Assembly: GCA_964016885.1 (NCBI GenBank)
Contig: CAXHJY010000702.1
Coordinates: 1-64,000 of the forward strand
Length of the DNA: 64,000 nt
Source: Eledone cirrhosa
Taxonomy: Eukaryota
Reading direction: 5' to 3'
Under the pieces are notes generated by a model. That model ran no database searches. It saw only the letters and a program-made list of their open reading frames with translations, and was not told the origin of the DNA. A program made the position numbers and the translations under genes. This document shows, in pieces, positions 5,694-64,000 of the stretch. Numbering within the stretch: position 1 is the first letter of the stretch; the number at the start of each line of letters is the position of its first letter.

Positions 5694-6101
5694 GGCGGCG
5701 ATGAATTTGTTTTGCGAGGTTTTTTATATGAAATCGTGTCGAAACAAATATTGTCATACTTGGGGAGGGTCATATTTGTGTAATATTGCCAGAATTAATA
5801 ACAGACTGAATAAAAATGGCATAGACATACAATACAACAGGAGGAAAAGATAGCACCACTGACGATGTTGCAGATGTGCAACAAAAGATTTATGATAAAC
5901 TATATATATGTGTTTGTGTCTATATTGTATCTGTATTATTTTTGACCGTCGATCAGTCAATGGCAAAGTTGAGGACCGAGTAAGTTAGATTACCGATATA
6001 AAAGACACAGAAGCGAGAAGCGAAAACCAACCAAACAGTGATTATGTTCTGTTATTAATTCTGGCAATATTACACAAATATGACCCTTCCCAAGTATAAC
6101 A

Positions 6102-6149
<48 letters not shown>

Positions 6150-6260
6150 ATGTAAATATATATATTTCGTTTCTGAATTTGTTTAGCAAGATTCTTTATC
6201 TGAAAACGTGTGTTGAAACCGATATTGTTTACTTTGGGAGGGTCATGTTGCAAATAAGAA
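5694..6260. mobile_element. Decayed element with direct + inverted terminal segments (Penelope pseudo-LTR-like)
   Basis: 5703-5773 is repeated, diverged, at ~6175-6246; 5748-5805 is inverted at 6048-6105; abuts (TA)n. Confidence 0.45.
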
Positions 6261-6378
6261 ACACACGCACCAGTTGCTTTGACTTCAATTTATTATAATA
6301 AATTTATAAATTTAGGAATTTATAAATTTCCGGTTGGTTGGTTGGTTGGTTCCACAACCAGATGGTTGTTTATATATT

Positions 6379-6421
6379 GTCAAAGTTCTTTCGTCACACA
6401 TTCTGTGACCTCTTCAGTGAC
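6379..6421 (-). ncRNA. Type I hammerhead ribozyme-like motif (aged copy)
   Basis: Minus strand GUCA-CUGAAGA-G-GUCACA-GAAUG-UGUGAC-GAAA-G-AA-CUU-UGAC: stem I GUCA/UGAC, 6-bp stem II, short stem III. Confidence 0.6.
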
Positions 6422-6768
6422 CGGGGATTCTTTTCTTTGTTTTTGTGCCTCTCCTTTGTTCTGTCTTTGACATACCCTTAAAGAATGCACCGGATAGTAT
6501 CTGGGAGCTTCCAACAGTAATGGTTGCCTTCTTTAAGGGTATGTCAATATTTATTTATAAAACTGATCTATATTATATTTTATCTGATTAAAGCACACCA
6601 TAATTTAACTTGGTGTCCTTGAAATATGTATAATGAAATAAATATGGTTTTATAAATATAGTTTCCATTTGTTAATATCGTATTTTTACTCCAAATATTT
6701 GTTGAGTGCTTTATATCAGCTATAAAAATATTTGCTTGTTATATCCCAACAATTTAAATAGAACTTTT

Positions 6769-9313: not shown

Positions 9314-9646
9314 CATCATCATCATCATCATCATTTTACATCCGCTTTCCCCTGCTTGCAAGGGTGAGACGGGAACTGATTCTAGCTTGATTTCTACAGC
9401 TGGATGCTCTTCTTAACACCAACCTCATTTACAGTGAGTGCTGGGTGCTTTTTTGCTGTGGCACCTCGACGCCCACTTTGCAGTGGAATGATATGGACCC
9501 CAGTCCCTATCATCTCATTTCTACAGCTGAGTAAACTGGAGCAATGTGAAATAAAGTGTCTTGCTCAAGGAAACAACACATCACCCGGTCTGAGAATTGA
9601 ACTCACAACTTTTCGATTGCAAGGCTAATGCTCTAACCACTAAGCT
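9312..9646 (-). mobile_element. tRNA-derived SINE with RTE-LINE-like 3' tail
   Basis: Minus strand: A-box TAGTGGTTAGA, B-box GAGTTCAATTC, CCTTGAGCAAGACACTT body, tail matching the LINE 3' UTR at 58081-58270, ends in (GAT)n; near-identical copy at 30140-30457. Confidence 0.85.
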
Positions 9647-9659
9647 ATATATATATATA

Positions 9660-30139: not shown

Positions 30140-30457
30140 TATCATCATCATCATCATCATCATTTTACGTCCGCTTTTCCCTGCTTGCAAGGGTGGGATG
30201 GGAACTGATTCTGGCTTGATTTCTACAGCTGGATGCCCTTCCTAACACCAACCTGGGTGCTTTTTTGCTGTGGCACCTCCACAACGACTTTGCAGTGGAA
30301 TGATAGGGACCCCTCTCCTTTCTACAGCTGAGTAAACTGGAGCAATGTGAAATAAAGTGTCTTGCTCAAGGAAACAACACATCACCCGGTCTGAGAATTG
30401 AACTCATAACCTTTTGATTGCAAGGCTAATGCTCTAACCACTAAGCCATGTGCCTCT
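30140..30457 (-). mobile_element. tRNA-derived SINE with RTE-like tail
   Basis: Near-identical to 9312-9646; complete tRNA-like head and (GAT)n tail. Confidence 0.85.
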
Positions 30458-45305: not shown

Positions 45306-46649
45306 ATCATCATCATCATCATCATCAACGTTTAACGTCCGTGTTCCACGCTTGCATGGGTTTGGACGGGGGTAGTCCCACTTGAGGCAAGAGTGATTGT
45401 CTTGCTCGCATAGGACTGTCTGGCAGGTTTTCTACAGTTGGATGCCCTTCCTAACACCAACCACATTTACAGTGTGGGTCTGAGAGGTTTTTACCGTGTT
45501 GCCTACACGGCCACATTACAGCGTGGACTGTGTGTTTTTTTGTCGTGACACCTACACGATCTCATTTGTTTCGGCCCGGATGGCGCGGCACCAACATAAC
45601 TTTACATAGGACGGGGTGGTGTGGATGGGGTGGGGGTGGTGGTGGTGGGACGGGGTGTATTTTGTTAGAGATGCCTACTGGCAAGGCGGGTCTTCTCTGT
45701 TACTGAGTACCGCCAAAGGTCTCGGTCCAGTGACATTGTCTTGGAGAGGTGTAAGTGTGTGAGGTCGGAGTTTATCAGCTCGTCCCAGGTTTTTCTAGGT
45801 CTGCCTATTCCGTGGCTACCGTCTATCTTTATTGCCCTGCACTTTGTTATACAGCTATCGACTTTCATGCGCATCACGTGTCCATACCAACGTAGCCTTC
45901 TCTCGAGTAAACAACATCTGATCCCTCTTATCTCTAATTTTTTCCTTAGTTCTTTTATGCTTTGCCGTTCACGTATATTACTGTTACACATCCAGCGGAG
46001 CATGCAAGCTTCGTTCCTCTCTAGTCTGCGTATATCCTCTGCACACAATGCCCAGGTCTCACTGCCATGCAACATTGCTGTTCGTATGCAGGCATCGTAC
46101 AACCTGCCTTTCATTTTTAGGGAGAACCCTTTAGCAGCTAATAGTGGTATAAGCTCTCTGAACTTTTTCCAACCAGTTCTGACTCTAGCTACAGTACTTT
46201 CAGAGCACCCTCCCCCACTGCTGATTTTATCGCCCAGGTAACGGAAGCTGTCCACTATTTCTATAGAACCCTCTGCGCAATTGAAAGAGCTAGTATTGTG
46301 TGGGCACTTGCTGCTACTTATTGCACCAGAACACCGGCCACATGTAAAATCTATGTTCTTAGTTAGCTTACCTGTGATCCCACTACATCTTTTATGCACC
46401 CATACTTTGCATTTAGGACACAAAATGGAGTTTCTACCTACGCCTTTCCTACACACCGAGCACGACCATTTCCCAGAAGGGACCGCCGCCTTGTTTTCTT
46501 TCCTACAAACTAGAACTTTGGTCTTAGCCAGGTTAATTTTAAGTCCTTTTGACTCTAGGCCGTGCTTCCATGATTGGAATTTCTTCTCTAGCTCGGCCAT
46601 TGATTCCGCTATGAGTGTCAGGTCGTCTGCGTATAGGAGTTCCCATGGG
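45306..46649 (-). mobile_element. 5'-truncated RTE-clade LINE (RT C-terminal half with PHD-like Cys insert, 3' UTR, (GAT)n tail)
   Basis: Open frame 46648-45665: [63 protein letters not shown]; the ORF's N-terminal YI portion is microsatellite. Confidence 0.92.
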
Positions 46650-47323: not shown

Positions 47324-47804
47324 TATATGAAATATAAGAATCAAAGAACTGTTCAAAACATTATTGTGCTTACAGCTGTTTCCTCCAAACCGAGGTTTGG
47401 ATTCTTCGGAGCAATTTATTAATGCATGGACAGTTATATGACCTCCTTTTCAGCCAAGAGACATACCGATACATATGCAAATATTGTGGGTCAACATTCA
47501 TTACCGAATTTAGAGTGGCAGTACACACTTCGAGATTACATTCATATTAAGAGGTACAATCAAAAATCAAAAATACAGGTTAAAATACAACAGGAAGATA
47601 AGCGGTTATATAGTGCAAATGTTATATGTGTGGCAAGCATGTGCGTCTTGTTTATATAGTGTGGCAGAGAGATATGTGTGGTAGAGGCACTTAGGTAGGT
47701 AAACAAGAGTGTTAGGTTGGTAGATCTGGTGGCAAATTCTTTATATGATTGATATAGTCTGTGTGTGGAGAAATGTTATAAGCATTAAAAATAATGCAAG
47801 CATT
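47324..47804 (-). repeat. 3' pseudo-LTR
   Basis: Matches 51515-51995 at offset 4191; five substitutions seen. Confidence 0.92.
47363..47415 (-). ncRNA. Type I hammerhead ribozyme in pseudo-LTR (variant core CCGAAGA)
   Basis: UGCU-CCGAAGA-A-UCCAAAC-CUCG-GUUUGGA-G-GAAAC-AGCU-GUA-AGCA; palindromic stem III ACAGCUGU. Confidence 0.75.
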
Positions 47805-48846
47805 AAAAGTGTTAAAAGTATTGGAGATGCACAGCGAAGGGATGTCAAGTATTTCATGTACTTCGACATGTTCATGGTCAGGGGAGTGTATTTTTCGATT
47901 ATATGCCCCTCACATAATCCACGACAATTCGATATTGAGCGTTTGGCAATCCAGTTAGAGAATCGTAGTCTGATGTTCTTTAGTTCAATACAGGAGGCTG
48001 TTACGTTTCGGAAAACGACATTGAATACCACCCGGAAGTGTGTGTGTGGCTAAGGGGAGGTAACTCCGGGGTTTTTATACGTAGCTATTAAAATGTGTCA
48101 CAATATAGGCCCTAATTTCTATGGTAATGCGCATCCTCCAAAAATTTTTTTAAATCATAAGGTGTATTAACTATAGAGTAGTTTAATTAAGTTATGCTGA
48201 AGGTGTTCATATTATTATGGTGGATTAACCCCCATCGTAAGGTGCCACAAATGGATATTATAGATGATGAGCGAGGATTCTAAATTAATGATCTCTGTGG
48301 TTGTAGTCTACTCATAGGACCAGGCGCGGTGAATGCAGGATTGCTTCAGGACCCAATGATCTCTGGTAAGTTCTGTGTCATCGCTTGCTACATTGGATGT
48401 CGAAAGATAATCATCTCCAGGCCGGCCAGAGGTCAATCCGCAGTCCTCACGACCCCTTTCTGACCGCCAGATCATCCATATATGTACAACCCGCACGCCA
48501 GTTGCAATGCATTCATTCTCTGCGCTCAGCATCCTGGTCCTACTGCTCAACAGCGTTACTAGATTAAATCGTTTTTCATCTGTCTAAGGAAGGTGCTTCC
48601 TCCGCACAACACTATCAAACCGATCAATTCATGCTTAAATTACCTATAGAGCGGTGTAGTGCAGTTCAAGTGGGTGGATGTTGTCACACCTGACGTAGAG
48701 GTATAAATGGGTATTCTCCCTGCGAAGGGTTCCAGAGGGATGTCGTTGTTTGTGTTATATTAGATCAGTTAGTGTTGGGTAAGTAGTATAAGGTGTGCCT
48801 CTGGTGTTTGATGCTAGATGTGGTGTTTGGTTCCAGTCCGACATTG

Positions 48847-60164: not shown

Positions 60165-63100
60165 TATAAGTCTCTAGCTGTGTCATTCTCGATAAAAGCA
60201 CTGGATATGTAGTCCTGATGATTTCTAACAAGAATGAAACGCGTAGATTACTTCCCTTGCTTTTATCGAGAATCTAATTGTAATACGTGACGTATTCTAT
60301 TCTATAGCGATTAGGTCTTCAAAATGTTTATTATAAACATACAGAATATTTTCGAATATTCTATGTCTATATTCACATATATATCGCTATTTCAGAGCAT
60401 TTATTCCAATTTCTAATTTCTGCCGGACCGGCAACCGCTCTTTCAAACCAGTTCCTGTACACAGCTAAGTATTCTATAAGTCTCTAGCTGTGTCATTCTC
60501 GATAAAAGCACTGGATATGTAGTCCTGATGATTTCTAACAAGAATGAAACGCGTAGATTACTTCCCTTGCTTTTATCGAGAATCTAATTGTAATACGTGA
60601 CGTATTCTATTCTATAGCGATTAGGTCTTCAAAATGTTTATTATAAACATACAGAATATTTTCGAATATTCTATGTCTATATTCACATATATATCGCTAT
60701 TTCAGAGCATTTATTCCAATTTCTAATTTCTGCCGGACCGGCAACCGCTCTTTCAAACCAGTTCCTGTACACAGCTAAGTATTCTATAAGTCTCTAGCTG
60801 TGTCATTCTCGATAAAAGCACTGGATATGTAGTCCTGATGATTTCTAACAAGAATGAAACGCGTAGATTACTTCCCTTGCTTTTATCGAGAATCTAATTG
60901 TAATACGTGACGTATTCTATTCTATAGCGATTAGGTCTTCAAAATGTTTATTATAAACATACAGAATATTTTCGAATATTCTATGTCTATATTCACATAT
61001 ATATCGCTATCTCAGAGCATTTATTCCAATTTCTAATTTCTGCCGGACCGGCAACCGCTCTTTCAAACCAGTTCCTGTACACAGCTAAGTATTCTATAAG
61101 TCTCTAGCTGTGTCATTCTCGATAAAAGCACTGGATATGTAGTCCTGATGATTTCTAACAAGAATGAAACGCGTAGATTACTTCCCTTGCTTTTATCGAG
61201 AATCTAATTGTAATACGTGACGTATTCTATTCTATAGCGATTAGGTCTTCAAAATGTTTATTATAAACATACAGAATATTTTCGAATATTCTATGTCTAT
61301 ATTCACATATATATCGCTATTTCAGAGCATTTATTCCAATTTCTAATTTCTGCCGGACCGGCAACCGCTCTTTCAAACCAGTTCCTGTACACAGCTAAGT
61401 ATTCTATAAGTCTCTAGCTGTGTCATTCTCGATAAAAGCACTGGATATGTAGTCCTGATGATTTCTAACAAGAATGAAACGCGTAGATTACTTCCCTTGC
61501 TTTTATCGAGAATCTAATTGTAATACGTGACGTATTCTATTCTATAGCGATTAGGTCTTCAAAATGTTTATTATAAACATACAGAATATTTTCGAATATT
61601 CTATGTCTATATTCACATATATATCGCTATTTCAGAGCATTTATTCCAATTTCTAATTTCTGCCGGACCGGCAACCGCTCTTTCAAACCAGTTCCTGTAC
61701 ACAGCTAAGTATTCTATAAGTCTCTAGCTGTGTCATTCTCGATAAAAGCACTGGATATGTAGTCCTGATGATTTCTAACAAGAATGAAACGCGTAGATTA
61801 CTTCCCTTGCTTTTATCGAGAATCTAATTGTAATACGTGACGTATTCTATTCTATAGCGATTAGGTCTTCAAAATGTTTATTATAAACATACAGAATATT
61901 TTCGAATATTCTATGTCTATATTCACATATATATCGCTATTTCAGAGCATTTATTCCAATTCCTAATTTCTGCCGGACCGGCAACCGCTCTTTCAAACCA
62001 GTTCCTGTACACAGCTAAGTATTCTATAAGTCTCTAGCTGTGTCATTCTCGATAAAAGCACTGGATATGTAGTCCTGATGATTTCTAACAAGAATGAAAC
62101 GCGTAGATTACTTCCCTTGCTTTTATCGAGAATCTAATTGTAATACGTGACGTATTCTATTCTATAGCGATTAGGTCTTCAAAATGTTTATTATAAACAT
62201 ACAGAATATTTTCGAATATTCTATGTCTATATTCACATATATATCGCTATTTCAGAGCATTTATTCCAATTTCTAATTTCTGCCGGACCGGCAACCGCTC
62301 TTTCAAACCAGTTCCTGTACACAGCTAAGTATTCTATAAGTCTCTAGCTGTGTCATTCTCGATAAAAGCACTGGATATGTAGTCCTGATGATTTCTAACA
62401 AGAATGAAACGCGTAGATTACTTCCCTTGCTTTTATCGAGAATCTAATTGTAATACGTGACGTATTCTATTCTATAGCGATTAGGTCTTCAAAATGTTTA
62501 TTATAAACATACAGAATATTTTCGAATATTCTATGTCTATATTCACATATATATCGCTATTTCAGAGCATTTATTCCAATTTCTAATTTCTGCCGGACCG
62601 GCAACCGCTCTTTCAAACCAGTTCCTGTACACAGCTAAGTATTCTATAAGTCTCTAGCTGTGTCATTCTCGATAAAAGCACTGGATATGTAGTCCTGATG
62701 ATTTCTAACAAGAATGAAACGCGTAGATTACTTCCCTTGCTTTTATCGAGAATCTAATTGTAATACGTGACGTATTCTATTCTATAGCGATTAGGTCTTC
62801 AAAATGTTTATTATAAACATACAGAATATTTTCGAATATTCTATGTCTATATTCACATATATATCGCTATTTCAGAGCATTTATTCCAATTTCTAATTTC
62901 TGCCGGACCGGCAACCGCTCTTTCAAACCAGTTCCTGTACACAGCTAAGTATTCTATAAGTCTCTAGCTGTGTCATTCTCGATAAAAGCACTGGATATGT
63001 AGTCCTGATGATTTCTAACAAGAATGAAACGCGTAGATTACTTCCCTTGCTTTTATCGAGAATCTAATTGTAATACGTGACGTATTCTATTCTATAGCGA

Positions 63101-64000
63101 TTAGGTCTTCAAAATGTTTATTATAAACATACAGAATATTTTCGAATATTCTATGTCTATATTCACATATATATCGCTATTTCAGAGCATTTATTCCAAT
63201 TTCTAATTTCTGCCGGACCGGCAACCGCTCTTTCAAACCAGTTCCTGTACACAGCTAAGTATTCTATAAGTCTCTAGCTGTGTCATTCTCGATAAAAGCA
63301 CTGGATATGTAGTCCTGATGATTTCTAACAAGAATGAAACGCGTAGATTACTTCCCTTGCTTTTATCGAGAATCTAATTGTAATACGTGACGTATTCTAT
63401 TCTATAGCGATTAGGTCTTCAAAATGTTTATTATAAACATACAGAATATTTTCGAATATTCTATGTCTATATTCACATATATATCGCTATTTCAGAGCAT
63501 TTATTCCAATTTCTAATTTCTGCCGGACCGGCAACCGCTCTTTCAAACCAGTTCCTGTACACAGCTAAGTATTCTATAAGTCTCTAGCTGTGTCATTCTC
63601 GATAAAAGCACTGGATATGTAGTCCTGATGATTTCTAACAAGAATGAAACGCGTAGATTACTTCCCTTGCTTTTATCGAGAATCTAATTGTAATACGTGA
63701 CGTATTCTATTCCATAGCGATTAGGTCTTCAAAATGTTTATTATAAACATACAGAATATTTTCGAATATTCTATGTCTATATTCACATATATATCGCTAT
63801 TTCAGAGCATTTATTCCAATTTCTAATTTCTGCCGGACCGGCAACCGCTCTTTCAAACCAGTTCCTGTACACAGCTAAGTATTCTATAAGTCTCTAGCTG
63901 TGTCATTCTCGATAAAAGCACTGGATATGTAGTCCTGATGATTTCTAACAAGAATGAAACGCGTAGATTACTTCCCTTGCTTTTATCGAGAATCTAATTG
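60165..64000 (+). repeat. 310-bp tandem array (>=12.4 copies), each monomer carrying a hammerhead ribozyme (retrozyme-type satellite)
   Basis: Exact period 310; only 3 substitutions noticed (61011, 61962, 63713); truncated by window end. Confidence 0.96.
60209..60251 (+). ncRNA. Type I hammerhead ribozyme (first of 13 copies, +310 each)
   Basis: GUAGUC-CUGAUGA-U-UUCU-AACA-AGAA-U-GAAAC-GC-GUA-GAUUAC; closed by a perfect 16-bp helix 60185-60200/60258-60273. Confidence 0.88.

What the first reader, a model, noticed from the sequence alone, without database searches (positions are those of the whole stretch)
47324..64000. Autonomous Penelope element co-located with its putative ribozyme passengers in (TA)n
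Seen: an intact RT-GIY-YIG PLE, the 418-nt family and the 310-nt array all lie within 17 kb. All are bounded by (TA)n-type microsatellite and all carry the same style of minimal type I hammerhead with GUA cleavage and a palindromic stem III. Known: PLEs have been proposed as mobilisers of non-LTR retrozymes. Inference: helper and parasites share a (TA)n-targeting endonuclease, making this locus a candidate complete helper/satellite-RNA system.
Basis: inference. Interest (0 to 1): 0.75.

Follow-up and report, generated by a model that had tools for sequence, protein, structure and literature searches.

The report
Penelope-copied ribozyme repeats, helper unproven
An intact Penelope-type jumping gene and two families of short repeats with a predicted self-cutting RNA sit side by side in AT-repeat DNA; the repeats' mirrored ends suggest that some Penelope enzyme copies them, but this neighbour is probably not their partner and its nearness is likely chance.

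Summary
All three elements are real. The PLE (47324-52293) is an intact Hydra-clade element (811-aa ORF, telomerase-like fold). The 310-nt and ~430-nt ("418") repeats are non-LTR retrozyme families with thousands of copies. Genome-wide they carry the PLE footprint: 3' ends in (TA)n at two fixed points, back-to-back arms (310: 110 of 127 sites; 107 of 108 closed pairs use one end of each kind, none the same end twice), no LINE tail. That supports insertion by a PLE enzyme. The locus-level claim fails. The three insertions differ in age (0.08%, ~1%, ~6%). PLE copies are not enriched near 310 arrays (1 of 66, 1.3 expected). RTE LINEs also land in (TA)n (18 of 30). The hammerheads differ in style (PLE: CCGAAGA core, long stem II). 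At least three intact Hydra families and other PLE clades are present. The twin bulged hairpin beside both start points of all three Hydra families is absent from both retrozymes, so this PLE is a less likely helper; the helper is unidentified. The scan reported the two-armed footprint and the twin hairpins before on other DNA of this genome.

The parts
47324..52293 (-). Hydra-clade PLE insertion (family A): long arm 47324-51995 plus inverted 5' arm; both outer ends in (TA)n
48847..51282 (-). Intact ORF, 811 aa: RT (D273, YRDD 367-370), CxCx5C linker (691), C-terminal GIY-YIG-type nuclease without CCHH
47324..47804 (-). 3' pLTR; ends at start point A, 47 nt past the predicted cleavage site
47366..47414 (-). 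Type I hammerhead motif of the PLE: CCGAAGA core, 7-bp stem II, palindrome ACAGCUGU, GUA; predicted cut between 47371 and 47370
   Evidence: 1,829 exact copies in G000
51515..51995 (-). 5' pLTR (period 4191); hammerhead 51557-51605 with a stem I mismatch
51478..51511 (-). Bulged hairpin 1 (GCUC..UU-GAGC), just 3' of start point A
51327..51343 (-). Bulged hairpin 2, just 3' of start point B (51349)
51994..52293 (+). Inverted arm, copy of 51349-51648, ending at start point B (166-nt tail); hammerhead 52037-52085 with a core change
52291..54663 (.). (TA)n-type microsatellite
54664..56215 (+). RTE-like LINE fragment with (GAT)10 tail, also in (TA)n; used as control family
56719..57114 (+). Older subfamily copy of the ~430-nt retrozyme, hammerhead core 56836-56866
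59066..59586 (-). Left arm of a two-armed ~430-nt retrozyme insertion; ends at fixed end 2; hammerhead core 59329-59359
59582..60010 (+). Right arm of the same insertion; about 6% diverged from the left arm; non-standard outer end; hammerhead core 59907-59937 with damaged stem II
60165..64000 (+). Single-armed 310-nt retrozyme array, 12.7 units, continues to contig base 64104 where it ends at fixed end 1 in (TA)n; first hammerhead 60209-60251, predicted cut after 60245

Best explanation
The 310-nt and ~430-nt hammerhead repeats are non-coding retrozymes likely copied into (TA)n by a Penelope-type RT-endonuclease acting in trans, and the intact Hydra-clade element beside them is an independent insertion that probably is not their helper. 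Shown: target bias, two fixed 3' ends per family, back-to-back arms that take one end of each kind, identical units in both arms, absence of LINE tails, different ages of the three insertions. Inferred, from the in vitro behaviour of Poseidon_Ac (PMC11167929): the enzyme nicks both strands of AT-rich DNA and each nick primes reverse transcription at one of two internal sites of the RNA; the two cDNAs are joined 5' to 5'. Inferred: the template is a circular monomer copied round and round, or a long multimer. Inferred: start sites are set by clade-specific RNA signals; the retrozymes lack the Hydra twin hairpin, and the 35-nt tail of the 310 family fits the 30-40 nt tail class, as does the Neptune-type family of this genome. 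My odds for the helper: non-Hydra PLE 0.55, another Hydra family 0.2, this family 0.15, not a PLE 0.1.
For: 310 family: 54 of 54 divergent end pairs on C1 join end 130 to end 165 (expected 49% if independent); of 73 further ends 56 had a second arm, and 53 of the 54 closed ones ended in the opposite class, 1 at a non-standard point, none in the same class. Units of the two arms are identical in 35 of 44 loci, against 127 of 2016 pairs between loci. In 3 of 15 two-armed inserts neither arm fits inside the other, so fold-back on the first cDNA is not enough. 418 family: ends at two points 59 nt apart, 25 of 26 in (TA)n. PLE-A shows the same plan: 38 of 40 closed 3' ends at +45-48 or +209-213, 11 of 13 two-armed inserts with one of each. 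RTE control: (GAT)n in 30 of 30, opposite-strand upstream hit in 2 of 30, neither joined to the copy. Against this PLE as partner: no enrichment near 310 arrays (1 of 66 within 17 kb, 1.3 expected); no homology (p 0.25 and 0.13); hairpin present twice in each of Hydra A, B and C, in 0 of 58 distinct 310 contexts and absent from the ~430-nt unit; no retrozyme arm joined to a Hydra A or B arm among the held loci; tails of 166 (A) and 88 nt (B) against 35 and 59.
Against: That the hairpin is required is untested. The youngest Hydra A and B copies are as young as the 310 arrays (5 of 16 and 8 of 27 with no mismatch), so age does not exclude Hydra. End 1 of the 310 unit (CUAUAUUCA|UAUA) resembles end A of this PLE (CUUAUAUUUCA|UAUA), though not beyond shuffles. 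The 310 hammerhead's stem II resembles that of a hairpin-bearing Hydra-type short element. The match to the Neptune-type family is in tail length only (alignment p 0.43), and most of its 117 listed copies have short open frames. Under a uniform model with lower-bound densities only 0.09 triples with a full-length PLE-A are expected, so the cluster needs local (TA)n richness or the many possible family combinations. For the 418 family only one two-armed insert outside the window had both ends typed. No cleavage, circle or expression was shown.
Confidence: 0.7

Rival explanations
1. The window's Hydra family A protein is the true helper of one or both retrozymes, recognising them without the bulged hairpin.
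For: Same two-end, two-arm plan and (TA)n target; at least 26 intact family-A ORFs held; age overlap with the 310 family; similar end-1 letters.
Against: No hairpin, no homology, different tail length and hammerhead style; no chimeras; other intact Hydra families fit equally.
Confidence: 0.15
2. The locus itself is a functional helper/satellite unit (co-inserted or co-transcribed).
For: The three lie within 17 kb; the uniform lower-bound expectation for such a triple is 0.09.
Against: Ages differ: 3 differences in 12 units, 5 of 481 and 4 of 300, about 18 of 294; separated by kilobases of (TA)n and LINE fragments; the PLE ORF runs away from the retrozymes; no enrichment of PLE-A near 310 (1 of 66) or ~430 copies (1 of 11, 0.7 expected; low power).
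Confidence: 0.03
3. An RTE or other LINE mobilises the retrozymes.
For: The RTE family is abundant, young (98% identity among top hits) and 18 of 30 copies have a (TA)-rich 3' flank.
Against: No (GAT)n tail on any typed retrozyme end; internal fixed ends and inverted arms are not seen in the RTE sample.
Confidence: 0.04
4. The arrays are satellite DNA amplified by DNA-level processes after a single monomer inserts (the route favoured for tandems in bioRxiv 10.64898/2026.07.22.740005).
For: Tandem units of 99% identity.
Against: More than 1,000 dispersed sites each with fixed ends (1,024 and 1,186 exact junctions); both inverted arms are multimeric and identical to each other but differ between loci.
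Confidence: 0.08

Closest known systems
Hydra clade of C-terminal EN+ PLEs (Craig et al. 2021, PMC8557442; passages, section 11 and supplement hits read)
   Same: RWR/RWK, DKT, YRDD, CxCx5C linker, no CCHH, CxxC and CxH motifs, hammerhead in pLTR, (TA)n target, inverted 5' arm and one-sided tail.
   Different: Longer unit (4.2 kb against <3 kb), U4C hammerhead core, 166-nt tail instead of 30-40 nt; by eye a different family from the Hydra-1_Obim protein shown in the supplement (not aligned here).
Metazoan non-LTR retrozymes (Cervera and de la Pena 2020, PMC7229834; part 2 of 6, passages and Discussion read)
   Same: Tandem non-coding units of 300-430 nt, low GC, one type I hammerhead per unit, predicted stable circle (z -4.7 and -8.7); U.U at the base of stem II as in HHR_Amex2.
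   Different: Back-to-back arms, two fixed 3' ends and (TA)n targeting are not described in the parts read; circles and cleavage were shown there and not here.
Li, Clavereau and Pollet 2026, bioRxiv 10.64898/2026.07.22.740005 (parts 1-3 of 5 read; supplements not seen)
   Same: Proposes that animal retrozymes are non-autonomous PLE derivatives.
   Different: Evidence there is co-occurrence and pLTR homology; here it is insertion structure, and no pLTR homology to the neighbouring PLE was found.
Poseidon_Ac in vitro system (Frangieh et al. 2024, PMC11167929; parts 1-3 of 4 read)
   Same: Two internal RT start sites that define the tail; both strands nicked and extended; AT-rich target; starts downstream of the hammerhead.
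   Different: Different clade; no retrozyme template tested; hammerhead cleavage was not needed for insertion in vitro.

Membership tests
PLE, Hydra clade | Single ORF, telomerase-like RT then C-terminal GIY-YIG | tested here: met
   Model pLDDT 82.6; the top five Foldseek hits are telomerase RTs. Nuclease assigned by motif order and by GIY-YIG hits in 2 of 26 aligned relatives; the ORF itself has no Pfam hit.
PLE, Hydra clade | RWK, DKT, CxCx5C; no CCHH; CxxC and CxH near the end | tested here: met
   RWR 51, ADKT 135, CNCRANRTC 691, FCNLC 788, CQH 817.
PLE, Hydra clade | pLTR with hammerhead, inverted 5' copy, tail, (TA)n target | tested here: met
   (37 of 41 ends (TA)-rich); tail is 166 nt, outside the published 30-40.
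PLE, Hydra clade | Placement in the RT phylogeny with published Hydra members | not tested
   No tree built.
PLE, Hydra clade | Active RT and endonuclease | not testable with these tools
   Catalytic residues present; activity needs bench work.
Non-LTR retrozyme (310 and ~430 families) | Non-coding tandem units of 150-450 nt with one type I hammerhead each; no LTR | tested here: met
   4,177 exact motifs; 11,105
Non-LTR retrozyme (310 and ~430 families) | Dispersed, mobile copies | tested here: met
Non-LTR retrozyme (310 and ~430 families) | Self-cleavage and accumulation as circular RNA | not testable with these tools
   Only fold predictions.
Cognate passenger of the window's PLE | Shared pLTR sequence or shared start-site signal | tested here: not met
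   No BLAST hit to family A, B or C pLTRs other than neighbouring insertions; alignments not above shuffles; twin hairpin absent.
Cognate passenger of the window's PLE | Age concordance | tested here: inconclusive
   310 overlaps the youngest Hydra A and B copies; sampled ~430 copies are older (median 4.4%, inflated by TA tracts, sample biased to the window's subfamily).
LINE-mobilised SINE | 3' tail shared with the partner LINE | tested here: not met
   RTE 30 of 30 (GAT)n; retrozyme ends none.

The most novel reading that the evidence does not exclude
PLE clades in one genome use separate RNA start-site codes, and retrozymes are sorted by them: the Hydra code is a twin bulged hairpin, while the 310-nt retrozyme and a superfamily with swapped hammerheads share another conserved tail module (CGCUAUUUCAGAGC) read by a different, Neptune-like or still unidentified PLE, which copies one RNA circle from both sides of the break. 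The tail module, not the ribozyme or the (TA)n target, would define helper-parasite pairs.
Probability: 0.3. Interest if true: 0.75.

Novelty: new member of a known kind. Interest (0 to 1): 0.5.

Why it matters
Which retroelement mobilises animal retrozymes is proposed but, in the papers read, not shown mechanistically. The fixed ends and mirrored arms mapped here give exact, testable start points for a PLE enzyme on two retrozyme RNAs, and an intact Hydra ORF plus rival PLE clades from the same genome give a ready specificity panel. The result also warns that nearness, (TA)n flanks and a palindromic stem III do not identify a helper.

Tried and rejected
Rfam at E<=1 was flooded by (TA)n matches to miRNA models; at gathering score it gave no hammerhead. 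Pfam and PDB sequence searches missed the ORF. A DNA search with the 310 unit returned nothing because its words are too common; patterns were used instead. Chimera hunt: of 73 unpaired 310 ends, none joined a Hydra arm; one abuts a Neptune-type ORF across a 200-N gap (L278) and cannot be used. Sequencing runs: no RNA holder listed; four laid contig sets gave a single 340-nt contig in three runs and many variants in one, which says nothing on expression or circularity. Single-strand folds of the hammerheads are weak (z -2.0 to +0.2), as expected for motifs thought to act as dimers, so they are not evidence. The idea that palindromic stem III dimers hold two templates together was considered; identical arms fit one template or one donor as well, and it was not tested. 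The 310-vs-430 alignment score (p 0.01) was not pursued; (TA)-rich stretches may explain it. Literature searches found no paper reporting two-armed retrozyme insertions; supplements of the bioRxiv paper were not seen and may bear on this.
Full report
Setting. The window is G000:C729:1-64000 of a 3.0-Gb genome. The nearest named homologue of the ORF is from an octopod, so a cephalopod host is a fair inference. In 47324-64000, 25% of 30-mers are (TA)-rich against 8.5% in 20 arbitrary 10-kb stretches.

The PLE. An open frame of 832 codons (811 aa from the ATG) lies on the minus strand. Pfam and PDB sequence searches found nothing, but 145 homologues were found. The alignment shows RWR, DKT, YRDD, CxCx5C, no CCHH, and terminal CxxC and CxH, the features listed for the Hydra clade (PMC8557442, section 11). 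The model (pLDDT 82.6) matches telomerase RTs best. The insertion has direct pLTRs 4191 nt apart and a 300-nt inverted arm. Its hammerhead has a CCGAAGA core; PMC3088659 notes that U4C lowers activity in vitro (passage). The motif has 1,829 exact copies. In 30 loci, 38 of 40 closed 3' ends fall at +45-48 or +209-213 from the predicted cut, and 11 of 13 two-armed inserts use one of each. This copy is not unique: 25 held loci encode intact ORFs about 95% identical to it, and two more intact Hydra families exist, B (30 loci, 39% identity) and C (5 loci, 51%). Neptune-type, Poseidon-like and a further C-terminal-EN PLE type also occur in held loci, named here from their motifs only.

The 310 family. 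The exact hammerhead occurs 4,177 times. Arrays picked by the hammerhead alone end at unit position 130/139 or 165/167 in 23 of 23 closed ends, 21 of them (TA)-rich (one end counted twice). The two junction patterns occur 1,024 and 1,186 times. On the first 222.5 Mb of C1, all 54 divergent pairs join one end of each kind. Of the other 73 ends, 56 have a second arm with a variant end, 15 are single-armed, 1 meets a gap and 1 runs off; 53 of the 54 closed second arms end in the opposite class. So 110 of 127 sites are two-armed, and 107 of 108 closed pairs use both ends. Units are near-identical within an insertion (514 of 608 match their arm; arms identical in 35 of 44) but differ between insertions (median 3 changes). 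In 3 of 15 cases neither arm can be a copy of the other. The window's own array is single-armed. Related units of 314-321 nt with quite different hammerheads keep the same tail module and the same two ends.

The ~430 family. The core motif occurs 11,105 times. Ends fall at about 205 and 263, 59 nt apart. Of 29 rows typed in 27 loci, 3 were read-through variants and were dropped; 25 of the other 26 are (TA)-rich. The window holds a two-armed insert whose arms share diagnostic letters but differ at about 18 of 294 positions, and an older subfamily copy.

What the footprint means. An inverted 5' copy and a one-sided 30-40 nt tail are described as PLE traits (PMC8557442). In vitro, Poseidon_Ac nicks and extends both strands and starts at two internal sites that bound the tail (PMC11167929). 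Both retrozymes show this plan; the RTE control does not (30 of 30 (GAT)n tails). I infer PLE-type insertion in trans (about 0.9). A circle copied many times, as proposed in PMC4209133 and PMC7229834, fits the multimeric identical arms, but a long multimeric transcript is not excluded.

Is the neighbour the helper? The three insertions differ in age: 0.08% within the 310 array, 1.0-1.3% between the PLE repeats, about 6% between the ~430 arms. On C1, 1 of 66 PLE-A insertions lies within 17 kb of a 310 insertion (1.3 expected), and 1 of 11 near a ~430 copy (0.7 expected), whereas 6 of 16 310 insertions lie near a ~430 copy (1.1 expected, p 0.0005; uniform null, first 39.5 Mb). The same call gives only 0.09 expected triples for a full-length PLE-A under lower-bound densities; the ~430 density from arbitrary stretches is about five times higher (2 in 200 kb) and the region is three times richer in (TA)n, so the triple is not remarkable (inference). 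(TA)n is a shared target: 18 of 30 RTE copies and 17 of 21 Hydra B end rows are (TA)-rich too. No homology links either unit to the pLTRs of families A-C. Families A, B and C each carry a bulged hairpin (RCUC..NN-GAGY) twice, at +51-56 and further down, a few bases 3' of the mapped ends in A and B; the pattern is absent from both retrozyme units and from the Neptune-type end (background 0.78 per kb). An abundant short element does carry it and is the better candidate for a Hydra passenger. The Neptune-type family has a tail of about 37-40 nt (second end seen in one locus), close to the 35 nt of the 310 family, but no significant sequence match.

Against my reading. The hairpin's role is untested. 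Young Hydra A and B copies match the 310 arrays in age. End 1 of the 310 unit looks like end A of this PLE. The Neptune-type copies listed are mostly interrupted. The helper therefore stays open; this family gets 0.15.

Comparison. The parts are known kinds. The bioRxiv preprint 10.64898/2026.07.22.740005 already argues from co-occurrence and pLTR homology that retrozymes are non-autonomous PLEs. Six literature searches gave no report of two-armed, two-ended retrozyme insertions. Earlier notes of this scan describe both the footprint and the twin hairpin; I had mapped the footprint and noted the hairpin before reading the respective notes.

Verdict. Observation partly confirmed; interpretation right at the level of element class, unsupported at the level of this locus and this helper. 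Interest 0.5.

Noticed in passing
L142:1990-2345, L275:30-340, L325:4170-4980, L055:2240-2620, L342, L022, L252: A superfamily of 314-321 nt units related to the 310 unit (75-80%) keeps the tail module CGCTATTTCAGAGC and the same two ends but has different hammerheads, some with the U3-A8 core; the 310 family seems to have swapped its ribozyme.
   Followed up: partly
L036, L047, L058, L234 (PLE-A end A): Short reiterations of the last 6-9 nt (TTTCATA) between the element end and the (TA)n flank, like telomerase-type slippage at the start of copying.
   Followed up: no
L278:456-735 (C1:30,796,580-30,796,779): A 310 arm and a Neptune-type ORF face away from each other across a 200-N gap; a possible helper-passenger chimera that cannot be verified here.
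   Followed up: partly
L258, L267, L274, L280, L281, L293, L295, L327 and others: Very abundant short hammerhead element (GAAACAGUU) with one Hydra-type bulged hairpin and two fixed ends; its stem II resembles that of the 310 hammerhead.
   Followed up: partly
C1, first 39.5 Mb: 310 insertions cluster with ~430 copies (6 of 16 within 17 kb, 1.1 expected under a uniform null).
   Followed up: partly
window 5694-6480: Two-armed end fragment of another PLE type with its own hammerhead (CTGAAGA GGTCAC...GAAAGAAC, core at 6417, minus); the same end follows a C-terminal-EN ORF in L310.
   Followed up: partly
window 45331-46649 (-), 54664-56215 (+), 58082-58907 (-): Three RTE-like LINE fragments flanked by (TA)n; the first carries a PHD-finger-like insertion in the RT region.
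   Followed up: partly
window 57816-57910, 9590-9647, 30391-30448: tRNA-like SINE copies; the one at 57816 lies in (TA)n.
   Followed up: no
L195-L224: Hydra family B has an AUA cleavage triplet, a long stem II, an 88-nt tail and full-length tandem dimers 3.9 kb apart.
   Followed up: partly
L278:3395-3430, L381: Some copies of the unrelated Neptune-type hammerhead also read CCGAAGA (U4C), so this core variant recurs in two clades.
   Followed up: no
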